From: a virus
Direction: 5' to 3' (one strand)
Virus record (IMG/VR): IMGVR_UViG_3300045988_061744
Location: 107,235-171,234 of that record
Length of the DNA stretch: 64,000 nt
The notes under the pieces were generated by a model, which was not told where the DNA came from, searched no databases, and saw only the letters and a program-made list of their open reading frames with translations. This document shows positions 1,735 through 8,932 of this stretch, in pieces. Each line of letters begins with the position of its first letter. Position 1 is the first letter of the stretch. A program made the translations under genes and the position numbers.

Positions 1735-2058
1735 TTAATCTAATAATATTTGTCCACATTCTAGAGACGGTTTTTCATGAATAAATTTCAGGAAAATTAT
1801 ATTCGTCTCCTTATATGGAACGAAATCTGTACCATCGTACCATTTATCGATGCCTTCTTCTACATATCTTAGAGATACATATCCAACATCACCTAATTTC
1901 ATAGAACACTGGTTCCAATTCGGAAATCGAACACACATTATGTCTTTGTAATCTAGATTATCATATTCTAGACGTTCAAAGACATAATTTGCATAACCCA
2001 TTCCGTCCTCACATTCAGCTACAAACTTAACATGGTAAGTTACTTCTTTGGTTTCCAC
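1735..2058 (-). CDS. hypothetical protein
   Basis: 107-aa ORF in the minus-strand gene train. Confidence 0.4.
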   Translation of the reverse strand: METKEVTYHVKFVAECEDGMGYANYVFERLEYDNLDYKDIMCVRFPNWNQCSMKLGDVGYVSLRYVEEGIDKWYDGTDFVPYKETNIIFLKFIHEKPSLECGQILLD

Positions 2059-2212
2059 ACCTCAAAGGTATTAATATCCTCGAACTTCCTGCAACCATAA
2101 GAGGCAAAGTCCCCTTGTAGTTTGTCCATATTTGGCAAACAGGGATAGTTCTTACACCTAGTACAGCTACGTTCAGGATGTTTATAGTGAAAACCATCTT
2201 TGTCCTTAAACA

Positions 2213-2587
2213 TTACTTCAGTAATAGGCATAATAATATTAATACACATGAGCCAGCAGCTCCATATTTGATTACGTTCTGCTTTTTCTTTAAAGACTTA
2301 TTAAGACCTTCAATTGATCTATTTTTATCTTCAATTATGTTTCCATAATACAGTAACTGGACTCTGCGAACAGAATCTGTTTTCTCCCAACTTTTGTTTA
2401 TAAGTTCTAAATTAGTTATTTGACTCTTCAATAAAGGAACCGTTTCGGACAACTTCTGATGTTCAGCAAATATCAGATTAGTTGTCTTTAACTGTTCGCT
2501 GGTTATTGTAACGGTCGATGTATTCTGAGAAAAAGCACAAATTGATGCTATCAGAACTAGACATAATAGTAGATACTTTCTCATCAT
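2213..2587 (-). CDS. secreted/exported hypothetical protein
   Basis: N-terminal signal peptide MMRKYLLLCLVLIASICAFSQ. Confidence 0.45.
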   Translation of the reverse strand: MMRKYLLLCLVLIASICAFSQNTSTVTITSEQLKTTNLIFAEHQKLSETVPLLKSQITNLELINKSWEKTDSVRRVQLLYYGNIIEDKNRSIEGLNKSLKKKQNVIKYGAAGSCVLILLCLLLK

Positions 2588-2769
2588 ACTCCTTGTCTAT
2601 ATATTTAATTTTCTCAACAATGGAATCATTAACTATATAAATGCTGTCCCTAACGATAGAATCCTTCACAATCTCTTGCACATTAGGAGTGCTAGGATTA
2701 CTATCTCTCTTAGGGACAGACAAATATATAATTATTAATCCCATTATGATAATTAAAATATAGCAAAAC

Positions 2770-3357
2770 TTAGTCTTGTTCATTTATCTCAATACCTGCA
2801 GCCTTAGCCTCCTCTACGAGCTTAACGCATCCGACTACATCCACACCTTCCTTCATTGCCAGTTTCACAACAAGTTTCTCATTGTCAGAGAGACCTTCCA
2901 CTTTAGCTTTTAGAGCTTGCTTTTTGTCGAAACGAGCTTTCATCTGATTGTAACCCTTGATAATTCTCTCTGGATTCTCTTTAAGGAAATTAACCTCCTG
3001 TTTCAAGAAAGCCTTTACCAAGGTCTTACTAGCTACTCCTCTATTTCTAGTATAGATAGTAGGACATTTAGGGTCGTGCAAAGCTTTATTGTAGGCATTA
3101 GCCTTACCTCTCTCCTTGTCAAATGTATCAGTTGGATGACATACACTGATACCAACAGATATGACTCTACAAACTTCTGCGTAATCTGGATCATCTACAC
3201 AGACTTCGTCTATTTCGTTCACCCAACCTACCGCAAGTTTGCAACCATCCTCACTCTCTTCTGGAGATTGGCTCAAAGCACACGCTACAATTTTGTGTTC
3301 CTCACCCTTAAAGTCTACAAACGAGTCAATCAAATACTCAGCTACATCCTGTTTCAT
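2770..3357 (-). CDS. hypothetical protein
   Basis: 195-aa ORF. Confidence 0.45.
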   Translation of the reverse strand: MKQDVAEYLIDSFVDFKGEEHKIVACALSQSPEESEDGCKLAVGWVNEIDEVCVDDPDYAEVCRVISVGISVCHPTDTFDKERGKANAYNKALHDPKCPTIYTRNRGVASKTLVKAFLKQEVNFLKENPERIIKGYNQMKARFDKKQALKAKVEGLSDNEKLVVKLAMKEGVDVVGCVKLVEEAKAAGIEINEQD

Positions 3358-3590
3358 TTTCTACAATTTTAAAACCGTTATTAATTAAATATTCTTCTGG
3401 AGCAAACTGTAATTCGAAAAATCTATGCAATGAATAGTTTTTTCTCTTTACAGAGATTAAATTTTTCTTTTTAAGTGTAATAGGTTTATCAGAAGCATAA
3501 TACTTCTCTTCCATAAGGGCTGCTCCCCATCCCCACATTTGATAGACCGAACTACAGTAGATAAACTTGTCATGTGTATATACAATCTGT

Positions 3591-4064
3591 TTATCCTTCT
3601 CGTAAGTCTTCCGTAAGATCGTCATAAAATACTTGAATAGTTCTAAAGATAAACTTATTCTTTGCTGAATTGTAACATTCATTCCAGCTACAATTTTTAT
3701 AGTGGTCCAGAATTTCAGAAGCTCTTACATTATAATATATATTTCTGCAAAAGCTTTCGTCCTCATCACATTCAGCAGAATTTATTGTATAATTTCCGAT
3801 GCCAATAGCGTAATGATAGTGACTTTCATAAATTTCACTAAATCTATCTTCTAACTCATAATCTTCGTATATTATTACTCTAAACTTGAATTTGTCCTTA
3901 CTAAGAAGTTTTGCCAGGCAATATGCTACATAGCAACACCCTCCAGTATTAATATCGTACTCTTCATCTAGAAACCTACAAAGTTTATTCAGCCTCTCCG
4001 CTAGAATTTCTTGTACTTCCGTAGATTTGGAGTTCAATCTCCTTCTTTTCTTTTTTAAACTCAT
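3591..4064 (-). CDS. hypothetical protein
   Basis: 157-aa ORF. Confidence 0.4.
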   Translation of the reverse strand: MSLKKKRRRLNSKSTEVQEILAERLNKLCRFLDEEYDINTGGCCYVAYCLAKLLSKDKFKFRVIIYEDYELEDRFSEIYESHYHYAIGIGNYTINSAECDEDESFCRNIYYNVRASEILDHYKNCSWNECYNSAKNKFIFRTIQVFYDDLTEDLREG

Positions 4065-4287
4065 CCAAGTACTTACTTAAAGTTGCAACTTCATCTTTTC
4101 CGAATTTTCTTCTAACTGCATAGTGGATACATCTTTCCACTGCAGATTCTAGCAGGAATCCATATCCTACTACCTTGAACTCTTTTCTCGGATTTTTACC
4201 ACCAATATCACATAACAACTCCAAGTCGAAACGGGGAGATGAATCGTTAATCGGGGTTAACCTGTAAAATGGACCTTCAATTACCAT
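3985..4287 (-). CDS. hypothetical protein
   Basis: 100-aa ORF overlapping the 5' end of the previous one. Confidence 0.3.
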   Translation of the reverse strand: MVIEGPFYRLTPINDSSPRFDLELLCDIGGKNPRKEFKVVGYGFLLESAVERCIHYAVRRKFGKDEVATLSKYLDEFKKEKKEIELQIYGSTRNSSGEAE

Positions 4288-4302
4288 CTCTTTTTTAAAT
4301 TA

Positions 4303-5109
4303 CTATCCGCATACATCTATCATTGTTAAATTATTATTACTAGGCTTATATCCGTAATCACAATATGAATTAGTTATTATAACATGATCAAAATTGTTAC
4401 ACAACTTTACCAAGCCTTCGATATTTACAGCATGACAAACTATAATCTCGAATTTAGAGTCTGGATATCTCTCTTTAAGAACTTTAAGCTCCCCAAGGAA
4501 TGTTCCCCCAGCATCACACAAATCATCAATAAAAGTAAAGGTCGGATAATAACAATTAACCTCTCTTCCAATGGAAAACTCCTTAATCTTACCAGTCTCC
4601 AAATCTCTCACCTTATTGAACACAATATGTCCCCAATTATTAGAGAGATTTTTGTACCTTTTGTAAGCTCCAGCATCTGGGAATACAATATTAGTTTGGG
4701 TGGCAAGATTATGTTTAAATTCAAGCGCTTCGCATCTATCCCCTAGAAGTTGTTCTGTTCTATCAGAGTGAGGTTCCAAAACCGTAACATAACGATAATT
4801 CATAGTGTTTAAAATACTGCAAACTATTTTCAGAGAAAATGGGCGGTTAAAGTCCATTACTCTATCCATACGCATAGACATTAGATAGGTAATAAACAAA
4901 TCCCACTCAATCTCTTGTCTATCAAGAATGTCTCCGACCTGAGTTAGAATAAATAACTCTTCAGCAGAAGTAATTCTGCATATAACCTTTACTGAATCTT
5001 TCCTATCAAATTCGTCAGGAAAACTTATCTGAGGTTCTCCGTCAGGAAATCTAGTGAGGTTATACTTAATCTCACTCTTGTCCAAGTTAATTAAGTTTAA
5101 TAATTTCAT
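4303..5109 (-). CDS. prs: ribose-phosphate pyrophosphokinase (PRPP synthetase)-like
   Basis: PRTase-type motifs: N-terminal RFPDGE...VKVICRI and phosphoribosyl-binding-like FIDDLCDAGGT. It sits next to the NAMPT-like gene. Confidence 0.65.
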   Translation of the reverse strand: MKLLNLINLDKSEIKYNLTRFPDGEPQISFPDEFDRKDSVKVICRITSAEELFILTQVGDILDRQEIEWDLFITYLMSMRMDRVMDFNRPFSLKIVCSILNTMNYRYVTVLEPHSDRTEQLLGDRCEALEFKHNLATQTNIVFPDAGAYKRYKNLSNNWGHIVFNKVRDLETGKIKEFSIGREVNCYYPTFTFIDDLCDAGGTFLGELKVLKERYPDSKFEIIVCHAVNIEGLVKLCNNFDHVIITNSYCDYGYKPSNNNLTMIDVCG

Positions 5110-5575
5110 CTACAACATATTTTAAAATTTCGTAACTTTCTTCTAAGCCTGCTCTATCATCTAATAGGATGTTGTAATAAGGCTTGTAAGATTTAGGTAA
5201 TACAGAGCTTTGATTTATTTGTAGCTCTCCATCCGGAGCTAATCCAAGCATATCATATACTATGGTAGACTTTCTATGTGATTCACTAATATCTTCATCA
5301 CAAGTAAATAATACCAGTTCAAATCCTAGTCTAGCACATCTTTTTAGCAGCTCAATAACACAACTATAGTCTCCTCCATCATTATGGTAGTCAAAAATAG
5401 TGTTGTCATAATCGAAAGCGACTATTAGCTTTCCGTATTTTTTATACTCTTCTAATAGTCGCTTCTTGCAAGCTTCTTTTCCGAACGGATGGTTAAAATT
5501 TTCCATAAAGCCCTTCGTTAATCCGCTGTCTGATTTCTTTGAGAGTGTGTTCCTTCTTAAGAACACCGTCTTCAA
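5087..5575 (-). CDS. HAD-family phosphatase-like protein
   Basis: DxDxT motif (VAFDYDNTIFD) near the N-terminus. Confidence 0.45.
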   Translation of the reverse strand: MKTVFLRRNTLSKKSDSGLTKGFMENFNHPFGKEACKKRLLEEYKKYGKLIVAFDYDNTIFDYHNDGGDYSCVIELLKRCARLGFELVLFTCDEDISESHRKSTIVYDMLGLAPDGELQINQSSVLPKSYKPYYNILLDDRAGLEESYEILKYVVDEIIKLN

Positions 5576-6707
5576 ATACAGTTTCTAGACAACCTCCATC
5601 CTCTACTTCAGGAGTTACTTGGTCTTCAGCATAGTAGACACCATTGACATCCTGATATACTGCAATCAGACCTTTCAAAGAGTTCTTAGTTCCATCATCA
5701 GTCTTAGGATGTTTGAATATTTCTTTCAATTCTCCATTAATTACACAAGCAGTAGCCTTAATTGCAAATCCTAAGCTATCTCTACTTGCATACTGATATG
5801 AAAATGAACCTACTCCTAGAACAAGATTGCAAGCTGCCATATGAGCGTTCTCAAGTCGCATATAGATTTGTTTCTGACGTTCTAGTGTAATAGAATCGCC
5901 ATATAACAAGCCTATTTTTGTACTAGGATAACGATAATCCCTAGAAGTAGTATTCCATCCAAAAATCTTACCAAGCATATAATAAGCACCATAGTATTGA
6001 CCTTCTGAAACTTCTACATACTCAGCATCATCGTTAAATGGAGCATAGCAACAATAATATTTACCCTCTTTCATCCTAGTATGGAAATGAGGATTAGTTC
6101 TCAGCCCACAAATAATATCAACGGGGTCTCCGCTATCTGGACGAATAACTACACGTCCATCACGAGCCATAATATCCTTCTTTAATTTGGGAAGGAAGTT
6201 TTCAATAACATTCCAGAAGTCCCAAGTATCAGAAACTATAGAAACGAACCCAGATGGATACAATTCATTAATTAATCGCTTAAAGGTTTGAAGTTCGTCC
6301 TCTTCTCCACCAGCACACATTACAGAATGTTCTGTAGCTGGAACAGTAGCAGCAATTAATTCATTGTCAGAATTTGCACCATAATATTCTTCTAGAGCAG
6401 CAATAGCTGGAATGGTCTCACTTCCAACAAACGAAGTCATATGTGCCATACCAGAAATGATAGCAGCCTCTAAACCAGCCATTCCTCTCATAGAGAAGTC
6501 ATGACACAAGAAATCCAGATTTACATCTTCTGGAAATCCAGTATGTACTGCGTGTCTTTTAAGTTCCTTCTTATAGAGTCTTGCTCTAGTAGCAGAAGTG
6601 CAAGGCATCCACAGAGTACAACTAATTAAAGTCTCTAAATAATTAGTTAACCAGAAGAACTCTGACTTTGTATTAGTAATAGTCATCACAGGAACCCTAA
6701 TAGGCAT
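5493..6707 (-). pseudogene. nadV: nicotinamide phosphoribosyltransferase (NAMPT/NadV)-like, C-terminal 404-aa portion in a different frame from its N-terminal part
   Basis: Strong NAMPT-like sequence (FFWLTNYLETL..., ...VSIVSDTWDFWN..., RPDSGDP). Its N-terminal ~120 aa are encoded by ORF 6686..7054 in another frame. Confidence 0.6.
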
Positions 6708-7054
6708 ATTGAACCTTCTGGCAACGCTTTAATGCGAATGGGAAGATAACCCAAATCATATAGAGCTTCAATATGTCTGTATCCTACAGACTCAATTCCC
6801 ACGAAATTATGGACTCTTCGATAAAACATTTCTATAGCCTTTTCTTTAGGTAATCCAAAGAAATTCTGATTAAATTCATCAATCAGATACTTCTTAATTA
6901 AATATTGGATTCCGAATACTACAGAACCTTCAGTGGCTTCTGGAAAGTATTTGTTACTTCTAGGAGTCCAATTACTGTAAACTTGTTCAGTACCTTCTGG
7001 ATACATTCTGTGGTGGCCCAATTTATAGCCATCTGTTGCATTAATTATTTCCAT
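6686..7054 (-). pseudogene. nadV: NAMPT-like N-terminal fragment (frameshifted relative to 5493..6707)
   Basis: MEIINATDGYKLGHHRMYPEGTEQVY...IKALPEGS matches the NAMPT N-terminus. A single-nucleotide frame change near 6690-6707 separates it from the rest of the enzyme. Confidence 0.6.
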
Positions 7055-7067
7055 TCTAAAAATTATT

Positions 7068-7592
7068 TTAATAACTAATTGTTAATAAACTTTTCATGCC
7101 TTTACCACTAGCTAAATTCTTAAAACACTGAGTGATAAATTCCTTCGTTTCTGGGTGGATAGCCCTAGGAGAACTTATATACTTAATCCACCAGTTATAT
7201 TCTCCTTGAAAACTATTACCATTATATACTTTACCGGCAGCCAGATAATCGCATACTAGTTCCAGAGCATACTCTTTAGGCATCTTCACTGGAACACCTC
7301 CAATGTCTAGCTTAGTTACCCAGTACTCGTAATGATGTGGATTCCTTCCTCTGTGATGTAAATAAGACCTAGAATATCCTAGAATTTCTTTTTCCCTGTT
7401 TAAGGGAGATGTGTCATCATCGTAAAATTTTACAGAACGAGAGAACTCATACCATCCGAATTTAGATAAGTCGTGCAAGATACCATGTTTGTATAGACCT
7501 AACTGAAAACAGTAATAAGCTACCCAAAACTTATGTTTAAGTATTCGCCTAAGATGTTTCAGTGTTATACACATACATTTAAGAATTTCCAT
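7068..7592 (-). CDS. HD-domain-like phosphohydrolase (tentative)
   Basis: His/Asp-rich motifs LHDLSKF, YLHHRG, NPHHYEYW. Confidence 0.35.
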   Translation of the reverse strand: MEILKCMCITLKHLRRILKHKFWVAYYCFQLGLYKHGILHDLSKFGWYEFSRSVKFYDDDTSPLNREKEILGYSRSYLHHRGRNPHHYEYWVTKLDIGGVPVKMPKEYALELVCDYLAAGKVYNGNSFQGEYNWWIKYISSPRAIHPETKEFITQCFKNLASGKGMKSLLTISY

Positions 7593-7912
7593 ATCTTCTT
7601 CACTATTCTAGTTAGAAAATTATTTCCTCTTAGGTTGAACTTATGTGTATATCCAGACAACCTATCTGGATTCCATACAGCGTGAACTATATAGAATAAA
7701 TATCCTACTGTATATAGCATAATGTTCAGTACTGGGATAAATCCTAGAATTAGTATTACTAAAACTAGCCACACTGGAACTTTAAGGTCATAGTCTTCTT
7801 CTATAAGTGCCACACTTCTGCTATACCCATTGTAGTAAACAGTTACATGGGTATCTTTCAAGATAAGCACCGTGATGATTACCATCACAGTGCATATTAC
7901 TAGATACATCAT
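7565..7912 (-). CDS. small membrane protein
   Basis: Three hydrophobic segments. Confidence 0.4.
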   Translation of the reverse strand: MMYLVICTVMVIITVLILKDTHVTVYYNGYSRSVALIEEDYDLKVPVWLVLVILILGFIPVLNIMLYTVGYLFYIVHAVWNPDRLSGYTHKFNLRGNNFLTRIVKKIWKFLNVCV

Positions 7913-8736
7913 TTGTTATTAGCTACGTCTTTAAATAAGGTGGGAACCTGACCATAAGTAGGAAGTTTTCCATCCCACTTCTTAATCATGTCCTGTTGAA
8001 CTATGAGAACTGACAAAGATGCTGAAATCTTTCTATTATATTCAGCTTCTGCATCACCCTTAATCTTAAGAGCTTCTGCTTCTCCTTGTGCGGCTGCTAC
8101 TTTCTTTTTAGCTTCTGCCTCAATAGTCTTAACTTCATTCTCTGCCTTCAAAGCCTGTTGAATTGCAGCATTCTTAGCATCAATAGAATTGACTAGCGTC
8201 TGTGGATATTGAAGACCAGAAGTCATTTGTTCAAGCTGAAAATTCTCAGCCAAGAGTTCCTTTGACAGTCTATCTTCTATAGACTTCTCAAACTCCTCAC
8301 GTTTACTTACTAGTTCATCAGTAGTATAGTTATTCAGCTGAATACGAAAAGCATTCTTTACGTAGTTATACAAAGTAGTGTTAATTACCTCTACAATATC
8401 TTCCTTTCTATACTTCTTAAATACTTCTGGTGATTTCCCGTCAACAATCTTCAAAGAAATTGTAGGGTCTACAGTAAACGAGGATCCGTCTTTAGCATTA
8501 ATACTGAAAGGAGGATAGTCCACAGTCTGTACGAATGTAGGATATTCATATACAGCCGTAGTAACAGGATTATACCACACCGCGCCAGTAACAAGAGACA
8601 CATCATCTACTCCCTTACCGTCTCCGTATAGATTCACCTTAATGCCTTCGTAACCAGCATCAATTCTCTCGTAGCCACAACTAGACAAGCCAAACACCAA
8701 AGTTAATACACACAAAAGCTTAATAATTGTCTTCAT
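7909..8736 (-). CDS. SPFH/band-7 (stomatin/prohibitin-like) lipoprotein
   Basis: Lipoprotein signal peptide (LVFGLSSC), then an SPFH-like domain and an Ala/Glu/Lys coiled coil. Confidence 0.6.
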   Translation of the reverse strand: MKTIIKLLCVLTLVFGLSSCGYERIDAGYEGIKVNLYGDGKGVDDVSLVTGAVWYNPVTTAVYEYPTFVQTVDYPPFSINAKDGSSFTVDPTISLKIVDGKSPEVFKKYRKEDIVEVINTTLYNYVKNAFRIQLNNYTTDELVSKREEFEKSIEDRLSKELLAENFQLEQMTSGLQYPQTLVNSIDAKNAAIQQALKAENEVKTIEAEAKKKVAAAQGEAEALKIKGDAEAEYNRKISASLSVLIVQQDMIKKWDGKLPTYGQVPTLFKDVANNK

Positions 8737-8932
8737 TTTCCTTATTTAAATAATGTTTCTTAATATATTTGAATATCCTATAAACTAAACTTGGGATTGC
8801 CACTAGTAATAGTAACAACCCCAAGATATTTGCAGCATACAATGATTCGGATAATAACCATAAGCTGACGTTGTAAATTACAACGATTAATAGAACGGCA
8901 ACAAATGCCTTAATTAAGTTTTTCTCGACCAT
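8720..8932 (-). CDS. small membrane protein
   Basis: 70 aa with two transmembrane helices. Confidence 0.35.
   Translation of the reverse strand: MVEKNLIKAFVAVLLIVVIYNVSLWLLSESLYAANILGLLLLLVAIPSLVYRIFKYIKKHYLNKENEDNY

What the first reader, a model, noticed from the sequence alone, without database searches (positions are those of the whole stretch)
4303..7054. NAD+-salvage / NAD-reconstitution-like module (PRPP-synthetase-like plus NAMPT-like) with an internal frame break in the NAMPT gene
A Prs-like gene sits beside a NAMPT/NadV-like gene. This is the pairing described for phage NAD+ reconstitution (Adps plus Namat, NARP1-type), which counters NAD+-depleting defence systems. A HAD phosphatase overlaps the pair. 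The NAMPT gene is split into an N-terminal 122-aa ORF and a C-terminal 404-aa ORF by a single-nucleotide frame change at about 6690-6707, within the conserved ALPEGS-[V/I]-IP segment. This could be a programmed -1 shift, a recent inactivation, or an assembly error.
Basis: partly seen in the sequence, partly recalled or inferred. Interest (0 to 1): 0.55.

Follow-up and report, generated by a model that had tools for sequence, protein, structure and literature searches.

The report
Phage NAD-rebuilding operon, one gene broken
This gut crAss-like phage carries the known NAD+-rebuilding counter-defence operon (NARP1: Adps plus Namat); its Namat gene is knocked out by a real one-base deletion, and a small, undescribed HAD-type phosphatase gene sits between the two core genes.

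Summary
On the minus strand, three overlapping genes run Namat (7054..5493), HAD-like (5506..5087) and Adps-like (5109..4303).

Namat is split by the loss of one C from a CCC run at 6703-6704. Nine related loci from other assemblies read CCC and seven encode an intact 520-aa protein. Three of them are otherwise identical to the window across the gene. There is no slippery site, so this is not a programmed frameshift. The broken allele recurs on 8 contigs from at least two assemblies, and it is the only indel in 10.1 kb. It is therefore most likely a real, very recent null allele. Other strains carry different lesions in the same gene.

The pair is NARP1, not Prs plus NadV. The repaired protein matches solved Namat far better than human NAMPT and carries the Namat clamp motif (GSFSYQYASRD). 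The Prs-like protein scores below the Prs cut-off, lacks the Prs C-terminal helices and groups with validated Adps. Crass-like relatives are already listed as NARP1.

The newer lead is the middle gene. It is a cap-less HAD phosphatase that lies beside NARP1 genes in eight phage lineages. In related Vibrio phages it occupies the slot of the Macro-domain phosphatase Adpp. Its substrate is only inferred.

The parts
5493..7054 (-). Namat (nicotinamide ADP-ribose transferase) gene, here a frameshifted pseudogene. The intact allele encodes 520 aa.
   Evidence: Pfam finds NAMPT_N and NAPRTase, and phrog_448 is matched collinearly across both parts. The repaired protein hits solved Namat 9w5x at E 7e-150. 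The gene differs from the intact 520-aa genes of L002, L005 and L009 by a single missing base.
6686..7054 (-). N-terminal ORF left by the frame break: 122 aa, made of native residues 1-118 followed by LLGF L.
   Evidence: This exact product is on record on 8 contigs.
6703..6704 (-). Site of the lesion. The window has CC where all relatives have CCC, a one-base deletion in the Cys-Pro codons TGC CCT.
   Evidence: Alignment of the window with 10 loci and coordinates. No X XXY YYZ heptamer lies in the 43-nt overlap of the two frames.
5493..6707 (-). C-terminal ORF: 404 aa from the ATG at 6707, equal to Met plus native residues 119-520. It carries the catalytic core and the Namat clamp helix GSFSYQYASRD.
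   Evidence: Gene callers elsewhere start it at the downstream ATG, giving 397 aa.
5087..5506 (-). Cap-less HAD-superfamily phosphatase-like gene (139 aa), a conserved third gene of this operon. It overlaps Namat by 14 nt and Adps by 23 nt.
4303..5109 (-). Adps-like gene (ADP-ribose pyrophosphokinase of the PRPS fold), 268 aa and intact.
   Evidence: phrog_619 at E 2e-53 with no Pfam hit. TIGR01251 gives 62.7 bits against a cut-off of 113. Equivalents of R87, H121, D161, K185, D212, D213 and D216 are conserved, the PP loop is DDLCDAGGTF, and the C-terminus is truncated. The identical protein is on record in 81 blocks of the collection.

Best explanation
The region is a three-gene NARP1-type operon (Namat, a HAD-like phosphatase, Adps) in a crAss-like phage of Bacteroidales (family Steigviridae).

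**How the intact operon most likely works.**
- Adps uses ATP to pyrophosphorylate ADP-ribose, the product of host NAD+-cleaving defence effectors, giving ADPR-PP.
- Namat joins ADPR-PP to nicotinamide to regenerate NAD+.
- Both functions are inferred from homology to enzymes tested in other phages.

**State of the operon in this genome.** Namat has lost one C from a CCC run. Translation ends after residue 118 plus five wrong residues. The rest of the gene is identical to intact alleles in other samples. This is a very recent loss-of-function allele circulating in a phage population, not a recoding device. This strain is therefore predicted to be unable to complete NAD+ reconstitution.

**The middle gene.** It encodes an active-looking, cap-less HAD phosphatase. 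My best inference is that it feeds the pathway by dephosphorylating a phosphorylated ADP-ribose, most plausibly ADPR-1''-phosphate made by RES-type NAD+ phosphorolysis. That would make it a non-homologous counterpart of the Macro-domain phosphatase Adpp of 'NARP1-AP'.

**Confidence by step.**
- NARP1 identity: about 0.9.
- Real, non-programmed null allele: about 0.85.
- HAD protein as an ADPR-phosphate phosphatase: about 0.35-0.4.
For: **Namat identity.**
- Best solved-structure hits are 9w5x/9w5w at 7e-150, against 1e-63 for human NAMPT, with a gap-free alignment across the break.
- Chain numbering identifies 9w5x as the SpbetaL1 Namat of PMC12774641 (D13, Y15, R40, F392, Y396, T398-D400).
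- The published Namat signature GSx-phi-x-phi-x-phi-TRD, with aromatics at positions 3 and 7, is present as GSFSYQYASRD. The clamp loop has Lys followed by Tyr, as in the Bas63 type.

**Adps identity.**
- TIGR01251 scores: E. coli Prs 423, Bas63-like 139, ICP1 Adps 98, window 63; the cut-off is 113.
- BLASTP gives 74-93 bits to validated Adps types, against 28-39 bits to Prs. A neighbour-joining tree groups the window with Adps.
- The acceptor and catalytic residues and the DD[IL]CD PP loop are conserved, and the alpha11-alpha12 helices are absent.
- The DAC15 and cr126_1 homologues are already listed as Namat-associated Adps in the supplement of Osterman et al..

**Frame break.**
- It is a single C deletion. 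The gene is otherwise 100% identical to L002, L005 and L009.
- All nine other loci that cover the site have CCC.
- There is no slippery heptamer in the overlap.
- It is the only indel in 10.1 kb against seven relatives, although that stretch holds 523 homopolymer runs of 3 nt or more.
- The frameshift product is on 8 contigs, including a second assembly that differs by one SNP.

**HAD protein.**
- Invariant catalytic motifs, a confident model and HAD-fold hits.
- It is adjacent to Namat and/or Adps, in varied gene orders, in crAss-like phages, Bacillus Bastillevirinae, Phass-1, Aeromonas PhAER-3, Vibrio VPT02, Tenacibaculum PTm1 and Lak megaphages. The same holds in 6 of 6 metagenomic contexts.
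- In Vibrio phages VPT02 and GRLPWR the flanking Adps and Namat are 82% and 87% identical, yet the middle gene is the HAD in one and a Macro-domain protein in the other.
- A Macro-domain Adpp in that slot has been shown to convert ADPR-1''P to ADPR.
Against: - No reads were available, so a systematic error shared by assemblies from one study cannot be formally excluded. The two assembly accessions (ERZ27260412 and ERZ27260418) are close and may come from one cohort.
- Both Namat halves remain open, and together they contain every native residue. A TGATG stop-start overlap and an in-frame ATG at 6707 exist, so residual activity by fragment complementation is not excluded.
- The canonical side of my Adps/Prs tree contains only gammaproteobacterial Prs, so placement against archaeal class III Prs was not tested by tree. 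The best PDB Prs hit was Sulfolobus, at 2.5e-7.
- The ICP1 adenine-contacting residue Phe92 is Met here, as in the Bas63-like protein. Namat D215 is Glu.
- The HAD substrate is inferred from gene position only. The closest structure (BT_0820) has no known function.
- One 735-kb megaphage has the HAD with no NARP1 gene within 5 kb. Phage cr85_1 has Namat and Adps without the HAD.
Confidence: 0.75

Rival explanations
1. The frame break is a sequencing or assembly error. The phage really carries the intact 520-aa Namat found in its relatives.
For: The difference is a single base in a homopolymer (CCC to CC), and the rest of the gene is identical to intact alleles. No reads could be inspected. The contigs that carry the allele may come from one study.
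Against: The allele was assembled independently at least twice, in L109 and in L110, which differs by one SNP. It is on 8 contigs. It is the only indel in 10.1 kb against seven relatives, despite 33 homopolymer runs of 5 nt or more. Other strains show larger, unambiguous lesions of the same gene: a 13-nt deletion in L006, a 1.7-kb deletion in L007, and deletions in L015.
Confidence: 0.1
2. The break is functional. Either a programmed -1 ribosomal frameshift restores full-length Namat, or the two ORFs are made separately and assemble into an active split enzyme.
For: The two frames overlap by 43 nt. An ATG at 6707 would give Met plus residues 119-520. The N-ORF stop overlaps another in-frame ATG (TGATG). 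Together the halves contain all native residues.
Against: There is no X XXY YYZ slippery heptamer and no homopolymer suitable for slippage in the overlap. The frame change is absent from all nine other loci that cover the site, and from DAC15, cr126_1, the Lak phages and the rest. The cut falls inside a beta-strand region that aligns without gaps to solved Namat. Different lesions elsewhere in the gene in other strains point to decay rather than design.
Confidence: 0.04
3. The pair is an ordinary salvage module. A true PRPP synthetase supplies PRPP to a NadV-type NAMPT, which makes NMN that host enzymes finish. It is not NARP1.
For: Database labels say ribose-phosphate pyrophosphokinase and nicotinamide phosphoribosyltransferase. 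NCBIfam PRK09198 matches the repaired protein above its cut-off. Namat retains some PRPP-to-NMN activity in vitro.
Against: The Namat-specific clamp motif is present and the protein is much closer to solved Namat than to NAMPT. The Prs-like protein fails every curated Prs cut-off, lacks the alpha11-alpha12 helices and groups with validated Adps. In Osterman et al., 97% of Adps-clade genes sit next to a Namat and bacterial prs genes rarely do. The crAss-like homologues are listed there as NARP1.
Confidence: 0.05
4. The HAD-like protein does something other than dephosphorylate ADPR-1''P. It could remove pyrophosphate to pull the Namat reaction forward. It could recycle ADPR monophosphates that arise from ADPR-PP breakdown. 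It could be a nucleotidase acting on NMN or dNMPs. Or it could be an unrelated passenger gene.
For: The substrate cannot be read from the sequence. Structural neighbours include 5'(3')-deoxyribonucleotidase-like proteins, the T4 Pnk 3'-phosphatase and sugar-bisphosphate phosphatases. ADPR-PP decays to ADPR-cyclic-phosphate, and apyrase yields ADPR-P. In Phass-1 the gene sits in a wider cluster with a nicotinamidase and an NAD synthase. One megaphage has it without nearby NARP1 genes.
Against: The gene stays with NARP1 genes in eight lineages and several gene orders, which argues against a passenger. In Lak phages it stays with Adps, while Namat lies about 225 kb away. That fits a role upstream of Adps better than pyrophosphate removal for Namat. 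It replaces the Macro-domain gene in an otherwise 82-87% identical Vibrio-phage operon.
Confidence: 0.5

Closest known systems
NARP1 (Adps + Namat) of phages Bas63, SpbetaL1, Fado and ICP1 (Osterman et al., bioRxiv 10.1101/2024.02.11.579819; Namat structure PMC12774641; Adps structure PMC13586617)
   Same: The same two enzyme families sit in one tight operon. The Namat clamp motif, the Adps PP loop, the catalytic lysine and acceptor residues, and the truncated C-terminus are all present. CrAss-like homologues (DAC15, cr126_1) are already in the published NARP1 tables.
   Different: The gene order is Namat first and Adps last, with a third gene between them. Namat has a lineage-specific insertion of about 38 aa (residues 318-355) relative to SpbetaL1. 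Namat D215 is Glu, and Adps Phe92 is Met. In this genome Namat is frameshifted.
NARP1-AP (Adps - Adpp - Namat) of Vibrio phage Gary (bioRxiv 10.64898/2026.01.28.702374)
   Same: It is a three-gene NARP1 operon with a predicted phosphatase embedded between or beside the core genes. In the related Vibrio phages VPT02 and GRLPWR, the HAD-like gene and a Macro-domain gene occupy the same slot.
   Different: Adpp is a Macro-domain protein (Poa1p-like). The protein here has a HAD fold and shares no sequence similarity with it. Its activity on ADPR-1''P is untested.
Human and bacterial NAMPT/NadV with PRPP synthetase (classical nicotinamide salvage; phage NARP2 uses NadV plus an NMN adenylyltransferase)
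   Same: Both proteins share the fold and catalytic core of these enzymes, and they are annotated as such in databases.
   Different: The clamp helix carries the adenine-stacking aromatics that NAMPT lacks. The Prs-like protein fails the Prs family cut-offs and lacks the regulatory and filament helices. I did not scan the window for an NMN adenylyltransferase gene.
BT_0820 of Bacteroides thetaiotaomicron (PDB 2obb) and small cap-less HAD phosphatases (T4 Pnk 3'-phosphatase domain, 5'(3')-deoxyribonucleotidase-like proteins)
   Different: Sequence identity is only about 20%. BT_0820 has no assigned function. None of these proteins is known to be linked to NAD+ or ADP-ribose metabolism.

Membership tests
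Namat (nicotinamide ADP-ribose transferase) | Nampt-like two-domain architecture (NAMPT_N plus the NAPRTase catalytic domain) | tested here: met
   PF18127 is found in the N-part and PF04095 in the C-part. phrog_448 is matched collinearly.
Namat (nicotinamide ADP-ribose transferase) | [quoted passage not shown] | tested here: met
   The window has GSFSYQYASRD: Phe at position 3, Tyr at position 7, and Thr replaced by Ser. It aligns to GSFTYQYNTRD of 9w5x.
Namat (nicotinamide ADP-ribose transferase) | Selectivity-clamp loop with Arg, Lys or Tyr at the third position, and a stacking residue next to it when that position is Lys or Tyr | tested here: met
   In WTPRSNKY, Lys aligns to R40 of SpbetaL1 and is followed by Tyr, as in the Bas63 type.
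Namat (nicotinamide ADP-ribose transferase) | Conserved catalytic core residues (D13, Y15, F189, R192, D215, the catalytic His, R306, D308, G360-D361) | tested here: met
   All are conserved in the alignment to 9w5x, except D215, which is Glu, and A362, which is Ser.
Namat (nicotinamide ADP-ribose transferase) | Closer to experimentally defined Namat than to NAMPT | tested here: met
   503 bits to 9w5x against 218 bits to rat or human NAMPT.
Namat (nicotinamide ADP-ribose transferase) | Encoded next to an Adps gene | tested here: met
   Adps lies 384 nt downstream of the Namat stop codon in the same overlapping operon.
Namat (nicotinamide ADP-ribose transferase) | Intact reading frame and the enzymatic activity ADPR-PP + nicotinamide -> NAD+ | tested here: not met
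   The frame is broken in the window by a 1-nt deletion. Activity cannot be tested with these tools. The intact allele exists in other samples.
Adps (ADP-ribose pyrophosphokinase, PRPS-like) | PRPS-like fold but outside bona fide Prs families | tested here: met
   TIGR01251 gives 62.7 bits against a cut-off of 113. All equivalog Prs models score far below their cut-offs. Validated Adps behave the same way (ICP1 98 bits), while E. coli Prs scores 423.
Adps (ADP-ribose pyrophosphokinase, PRPS-like) | Loss of the C-terminal alpha11-alpha12 module (PMC13586617) | tested here: met
   The protein has 268 aa against 315 aa for Prs. In the alignment it ends before the Prs C-terminal segment, as ICP1 and Bas63-like Adps do.
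Adps (ADP-ribose pyrophosphokinase, PRPS-like) | Remodelled PP loop and donor site (ICP1 C215-S220, F221) | tested here: met
   The window has DDLCDAGGTF, ICP1 has DDICDGAASF and E. coli Prs has DDMIDTGGTL. The Cys and the Phe are shared with Adps and not with Prs. The AAS of ICP1 is GGT here.
Adps (ADP-ribose pyrophosphokinase, PRPS-like) | Catalytic Lys185 and acceptor residues R87, H121, D161, D212, D213 and D216 | tested here: met
   All are conserved in the alignment. The adenine contact F92 is Met, as in the Bas63-like protein. F18 could not be placed reliably.
Adps (ADP-ribose pyrophosphokinase, PRPS-like) | Falls in the phage Adps clade rather than with cellular Prs | tested here: met
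   A neighbour-joining tree and bit scores place it with Adps. The DAC15 and cr126_1 homologues (43-44% identical) are listed by Osterman et al. as Namat-associated. Caveat: the cellular Prs set used was gammaproteobacterial only.
Adps (ADP-ribose pyrophosphokinase, PRPS-like) | Converts ADPR + ATP to ADPR-PP and does not act on ribose-5-phosphate | not testable with these tools
   This needs a biochemical assay.
NARP1-AP (NARP1 with the associated phosphatase Adpp) | The associated phosphatase is a Macro-domain protein (PF01661, PF14519 or PF20016) | tested here: not met
   The middle gene has no Pfam hit even at E 10 and its model has a HAD fold. GRLPWR gp179, in the same slot of a related operon, does hit PF01661.
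NARP1-AP (NARP1 with the associated phosphatase Adpp) | Dephosphorylates ADPR-1''P to ADPR and lets NARP1 overcome aRES | not testable with these tools
   This is inferred only from operon position and from the swap with the Macro-domain gene.
HAD superfamily phosphatase | Four catalytic motifs: DxDxT, Thr/Ser, Lys and DD | tested here: met
   D32, D34, T36, K108, D116 and D117 are invariant in 36-49 homologues, and Thr/Ser ends the second strand.
HAD superfamily phosphatase | Rossmann-like HAD core fold | tested here: met
Programmed -1 ribosomal frameshift | A slippery heptamer in the overlap, and conservation of the two-frame arrangement in relatives | tested here: not met
   There is no X XXY YYZ motif in 6728..6686. 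All nine other loci that cover the site, and the more distant phages, have one continuous frame at this position.

The most novel reading that the evidence does not exclude
The 139-aa HAD-like protein defines a second, structurally unrelated class of NARP1-associated phosphatase. It would be an analogue of the Macro-domain Adpp that converts a phosphorylated ADP-ribose, such as ADPR-1''P from RES-type NAD+ phosphorolysis, into the Adps substrate. If so, phages as different as crAss-like viruses, Lak megaphages, Bacillus Bastillevirinae and T5-like vibriophages have independently extended NARP1 by non-orthologous gene displacement. Abundant human-gut phages would then be equipped against non-canonical NAD+ depletion. 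A further implication is that repeated natural knock-outs of Namat (this window, L006, L007, L015) mark the pathway as costly or dispensable in some hosts.
Probability: 0.35. Interest if true: 0.65.

Novelty: new variant of a known kind. Interest (0 to 1): 0.5.

Why it matters
NAD+ depletion is one of the commonest bacterial anti-phage strategies, and NARP1 is the main known phage answer to it.

The core result here is ordinary. This crAss-like phage is another carrier of NARP1, and in this strain one gene is dead.

Two points have wider value:
- **A conserved, undescribed third gene.** It takes the place of the known Macro-domain phosphatase in sister operons. That gives a directly testable candidate for a new accessory enzyme, and possibly a new substrate entry point into NAD+ reconstitution, in phages that dominate the human gut virome.
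- **Several independent natural lesions of Namat in one phage species.** These provide ready-made isogenic-like variants for asking when this counter-defence is maintained or lost in the gut.

Tried and rejected
**Rejected on evidence**
- Programmed frameshift or transcriptional slippage. There is no slippery heptamer and no long homopolymer, and relatives are in frame.
- Error-prone assembly. There is only one indel in 10.1 kb.
- Canonical Prs. Curated Prs models score far below their cut-offs, with validated Adps and E. coli Prs as controls.

**Searches that gave little or nothing**
- Pfam gave nothing for the HAD-like protein, even at E 10. NCBIfam gave only weak HAD-IIIA and HAD-IIIC hits.
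- The PHROG label 'phosphoheptose isomerase' for this family (phrog_1238) is not supported by the fold or the motifs.
- The genome-contig scan with E. coli Prs returned only gammaproteobacterial Prs at 80-99% identity. The cellular side of my tree is therefore narrow, and I could not add Bacteroides or archaeal Prs.
- The exact 404-aa C-terminal product is not on record, because gene callers start it at a later ATG, giving 397 aa.
- The afdb50 fold library was unavailable.
- Full-text searches found no paper that links NARP1 with a HAD phosphatase. None of the phage names or accessions I searched for appears in the supplements of the NARP1-AP preprint. This is absence from a limited library, not proof of novelty.

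**Not done**
- I did not model Adps or Namat structures, because the sequence evidence was sufficient.


Full report
**1. What is in the sequence**

All relevant genes lie on the minus strand:
- A NAMPT-like N-terminal ORF, 7054..6686 (122 aa).
- A NAMPT-like C-terminal ORF, 6707..5493 (404 aa).
- A small ORF whose realistic ATG start is at 5506 (5506..5087, 139 aa).
- A Prs-like ORF, 5109..4303 (268 aa).

The three genes overlap. Namat and the middle gene share 14 nt. The middle gene and the Prs-like gene share 23 nt.

Pfam finds NAMPT_N in the N-part and NAPRTase in the C-part. The PHROG profile phrog_448 is matched at positions 15-128 by the N-part and 128-497 by the C-part. This is therefore one gene cut once.

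**2. Where the window comes from**

The nearest isolates are Bacteroides phages DAC15 and DAC17 (Crassvirales, Steigviridae), at about 72% nucleotide identity. DAC15 has the same three genes in the same order, with an intact 507-aa NAMPT-like gene.

A look-up of the exact Prs-like protein lists it in 81 blocks of the metagenome collection. Of the 22 contigs read, ten loci were retrieved. In the 10.1 kb that overlaps the window, nine of these loci are 98.6-99.96% identical to it. The tenth, L004, is 92.8% identical.

**3. The frame break**

The window was aligned with these ten loci.
- Its NAMPT-like gene differs from L002, L005 and L009 by one thing only. One C is missing from a CCC run: ATGCCCTATT in relatives, ATGCCTATT in the window, at window 6703-6704.
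- The intact reading is ...ALPEGSICPIRVPVMTITNT....
- All nine other loci that cover the site have CCC.
- The two frames are both open over only 43 nt. That stretch holds no X XXY YYZ heptamer and no long homopolymer.
- A programmed frameshift or slippage is therefore rejected.

Is it an assembly error?
- Over 10.1 kb the window shows exactly one indel against each of seven relatives, namely this deletion. That stretch holds 523 homopolymer runs of 3 nt or more, and 33 runs of 5 nt or more. The assembly is not indel-prone.
- The exact 122-aa frameshift product is on record on 8 contigs.
- One of them, L109 (ERZ27260412), is 100% identical to the window over 6.4 kb and may be its source.
- Another, L110 (ERZ27260418), differs by one SNP and has the same CC.

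I conclude that this is a real allele. Because the rest of the gene is identical to intact alleles, it is also a very recent one. Reads were not available, so a residual doubt of about 0.1 remains.

**4. Other lesions of the same gene**

- L006 has a 13-nt deletion near codon 30.
- L007 lacks about 1.7 kb, which removes the DUF5662 gene and about 390 codons of the NAMPT-like gene. It also lacks a separate segment containing the Band_7 gene.
- L015 (MT836666.1, 93% protein identity) has deletions in the C-terminus of the NAMPT-like gene and inside the middle gene.

There is an ascertainment bias: the loci were found through an identical Prs-like protein. Even so, at least three independent disruptions in one phage species point to relaxed or negative selection on this gene in some populations.

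**5. NAMPT or Namat?**

The repaired protein's best solved-structure matches are 9w5x and 9w5w (E 7e-150, 503 bits). Mammalian NAMPT scores 1e-63 (218 bits). The alignment runs across the break without a gap. The chain numbering of 9w5x fits the residues reported for SpbetaL1 Namat (D13, Y15, R40, F392, Y396, T398-D400).

The structure paper defines a Namat-only motif, GSx-phi-x-phi-x-phi-TRD, with adenine-stacking aromatics at positions 3 and 7. It also defines a clamp loop whose third residue is Arg, Lys or Tyr. The window has GSFSYQYASRD. Its loop reads WTPRSNKY, with Lys at the R40 position followed by Tyr, as in the Bas63 type.

The catalytic residues are conserved, apart from D215 replaced by Glu and A362 replaced by Ser. 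The protein is therefore a Namat, frameshifted in this genome.

**6. Prs or Adps?**

The Prs-like protein has no Pfam hit at E 0.01. The table gives TIGR01251 scores (cut-off 113 bits).

| Protein | TIGR01251 bits |
|---|---|
| E. coli Prs | 423 |
| Bas63-like Adps (phage garuso) | 139 |
| ICP1 Adps (structure and activity shown) | 98 |
| Window | 62.7 |

The ICP1 Adps paper names the following features:
- Conserved acceptor residues R87, H121, D161, D212, D213 and D216.
- A catalytic Lys185.
- A remodelled PP loop.
- Loss of the C-terminal alpha11-alpha12 helices, described there as a defining signature.

All of these are seen in the window protein. Its PP loop is DDLCDAGGTF, against DDICDGAASF in ICP1 and DDMIDTGGTL in E. 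coli Prs. It has 268 aa against 315 aa for Prs.

BLASTP gives 74-93 bits to validated Adps types and 28-39 bits to Prs. A neighbour-joining tree groups the window protein with Adps. The cellular Prs set was narrow, gammaproteobacteria only.

The supplement of Osterman et al. already lists the DAC15 and cr126_1 homologues as Namat-associated Adps, and cr126_1 Namat as 'Adps-associated'. The core module is therefore NARP1, already catalogued in this phage group. The 'Prs plus NadV salvage' alternative is not supported.

**7. The middle gene**

It has no Pfam match, even at E 10. The evidence that it is a HAD phosphatase:
- 522 homologues exist in the large protein collection, none of the 120 listed with a functional name.
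- Alignments of 36 and 49 of them keep all four HAD motifs invariant or nearly so: DxDxT (D32, D34, T36), Thr/Ser, K108, and D116-D117.
- The AlphaFold model is confident (pLDDT 92).
- Foldseek against viral models finds a 'HAD-like domain containing protein' at 4e-9.

It is a minimal, cap-less HAD phosphatase. The PHROG name 'phosphoheptose isomerase' is wrong for it.

**8. Its genomic company**

In the phage collection the family occurs in 85 records. The table lists the lineages I inspected.

| Lineage | Arrangement |
|---|---|
| crAss-like phages (DAC15, cr126_1, five further metagenomic loci) | Namat - HAD - Adps |
| JGI contig L112 | Namat - AAA_33/NT5C gene - HAD - Adps |
| Bacillus Bastillevirinae (SalinJah) | Adps - Namat - HAD |
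| Gut phage Phass-1 | nicotinamidase - Adps-like - Namat-like - HAD - NAD synthase |
| Aeromonas PhAER-3 and Vibrio VPT02 | Adps - HAD - Namat |
| Tenacibaculum PTm1 | HAD - Namat |
| Lak megaphages | HAD - Adps, with Namat about 225 kb away |
| A 735-kb megaphage | HAD with no NARP1 gene within 5 kb |

One crAss-like genome, cr85_1, has Namat and Adps without the HAD.

**9. The most informative comparison**

Vibrio phages VPT02 and GRLPWR belong to the same subfamily. Their Adps proteins are 82% identical, their Namat proteins 87%, and five upstream genes 38-87%. The gene between Adps and Namat differs completely. It is the HAD-like protein in VPT02 and a Macro-domain protein in GRLPWR (PF01661, 31 bits, cut-off 22), with no similarity between the two.

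A Macro-domain phosphatase in exactly this slot (Adpp, in phage Gary) has been shown to convert ADPR-1''-phosphate to ADPR. ADPR-1''-phosphate is the product of RES-type NAD+ phosphorolysis. That conversion lets NARP1 defeat the aRES defence.

The swap suggests non-orthologous displacement. In the Lak phages the HAD gene stays with Adps rather than with Namat, which fits a role in supplying the Adps substrate. I therefore propose that the HAD protein dephosphorylates a phosphorylated ADP-ribose. This is inference from gene context only, and I put it at about 0.35-0.4. The alternatives are listed among the rival explanations: pyrophosphate removal, recycling of ADPR-PP breakdown products, or a nucleotidase. 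I found no paper that links NARP1 to a HAD enzyme, within a limited library.

**10. Mechanism: shown and inferred**

Shown here:
- Gene content and order.
- The exact lesion and its absence from relatives.
- Recurrence of the lesion in independent assemblies.
- The family signatures of Namat and Adps.
- The HAD fold and motifs, and the conserved association of the HAD gene with NARP1 genes.

Taken from the literature on homologues:
- Adps makes ADPR-PP from ADPR and ATP.
- Namat makes NAD+ from ADPR-PP and nicotinamide.
- NARP1 rescues phages from SIR2, TIR, DSR and SEFIR-type NAD+ depletion.

Inferred:
- These activities hold for the crAss-like proteins.
- The window strain cannot complete the pathway.
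- The HAD substrate.

**11. Verdict**

The frame break is a recent natural knock-out rather than a recoding signal.

The core system is known and already listed for this phage group. The HAD-type accessory gene is a plausible new variant of the 'NARP1 plus phosphatase' theme, and it is the part worth testing at the bench.

Noticed in passing
L006:3068-4617 (Logan ERR12356706); L007 (SRR34061331), which lacks window 5887-7605 and 7959-8856; L015 (MT836666.1) 2422-4011: There are independent lesions of the same Namat gene in other strains. L006 has a 13-nt deletion (gtaattggactcc) near codon 30. L007 has a 1.7-kb deletion that removes DUF5662 and most of Namat, plus a second deletion of the Band_7 gene. 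L015 has deletions in the Namat C-terminus and inside the HAD gene. Together they suggest recurrent loss of this counter-defence gene.
   Followed up: partly
L105 (Vibrio phage VPT02) 4986-5378 compared with L108 (Vibrio phage GRLPWR) 4328-4804: In two related T5-like vibriophages the Adps and Namat proteins are 82-87% identical. The gene between them is the HAD-like protein in one phage and a Macro-domain protein in the other. This looks like an in-place swap of unrelated putative phosphatases.
   Followed up: yes
L103 (Phage Phass-1, genetic code 15 clade) 1881-6319: A five-gene NAD cluster runs nicotinamidase (isochorismatase family), Adps-like, Namat-like, HAD-like and NAD synthase (NadE). 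The flanking deamidase and amidase hint at a deamido (nicotinate) version of the reconstitution route.
   Followed up: no
L112 (JGI 3300035520) 2973-4004: An extra 343-aa gene with AAA_33 (kinase-like, weak) and NT5C (5'(3')-deoxyribonucleotidase) domains is inserted between Namat and the HAD-like gene. It is another accessory gene in a NARP1 operon.
   Followed up: no
L018 (Prevotella phage Lak-B2) 5001-6301; Namat at record positions 195682-197172: In Lak megaphages the HAD-like and Adps-like genes are adjacent, while the Namat homologue lies about 225 kb away. The HAD gene therefore travels with Adps rather than with Namat.
   Followed up: partly
L022 (crAss-like phage cr85_1) 2495-4015, codon 51: The Namat gene of cr85_1 is annotated as two CDS because of an in-frame TAG at the position of a conserved Gln (GIQY). 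This could be TAG-to-Gln recoding, as reported for some crAss-like phages, or a nonsense mutation. This genome also has no HAD gene between Namat and Adps.
   Followed up: partly
window 7068-7592 (- strand): A DUF5662 gene (PF18907, E 1.6e-27) with an HD-like 'HDLSKF' motif sits 13 nt upstream of Namat. A DUF5662 gene also lies one gene away from Namat in the more distant locus L113, and it is deleted together with Namat in L007. It may be a further member of the module.
   Followed up: no
window 6686-6707 (- strand): After the deletion, an ATG at 6707 is in frame with the C-part and would give Met plus native residues 119-520. In addition, the N-ORF stop overlaps another in-frame ATG (TGATG). 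Both halves could therefore be translated. Whether they complement each other is unknown.
   Followed up: no
L109 (ENA ERZ27260412, contig k99_136474): The contig that matches the window exactly is 191,994 bp long, although related crAss-like genomes are about 100 kb. It may be a concatemeric assembly or a larger genome.
   Followed up: no
window 5493-7054, residues 318-355 of the repaired protein: This Namat has an insertion of about 38 residues (LRTNPHFHTRMKEGKYYCCYAPFNDDAEYVEVSEGQYY) relative to SpbetaL1 Namat. The cr85_1 protein is shorter in this region.
   Followed up: no
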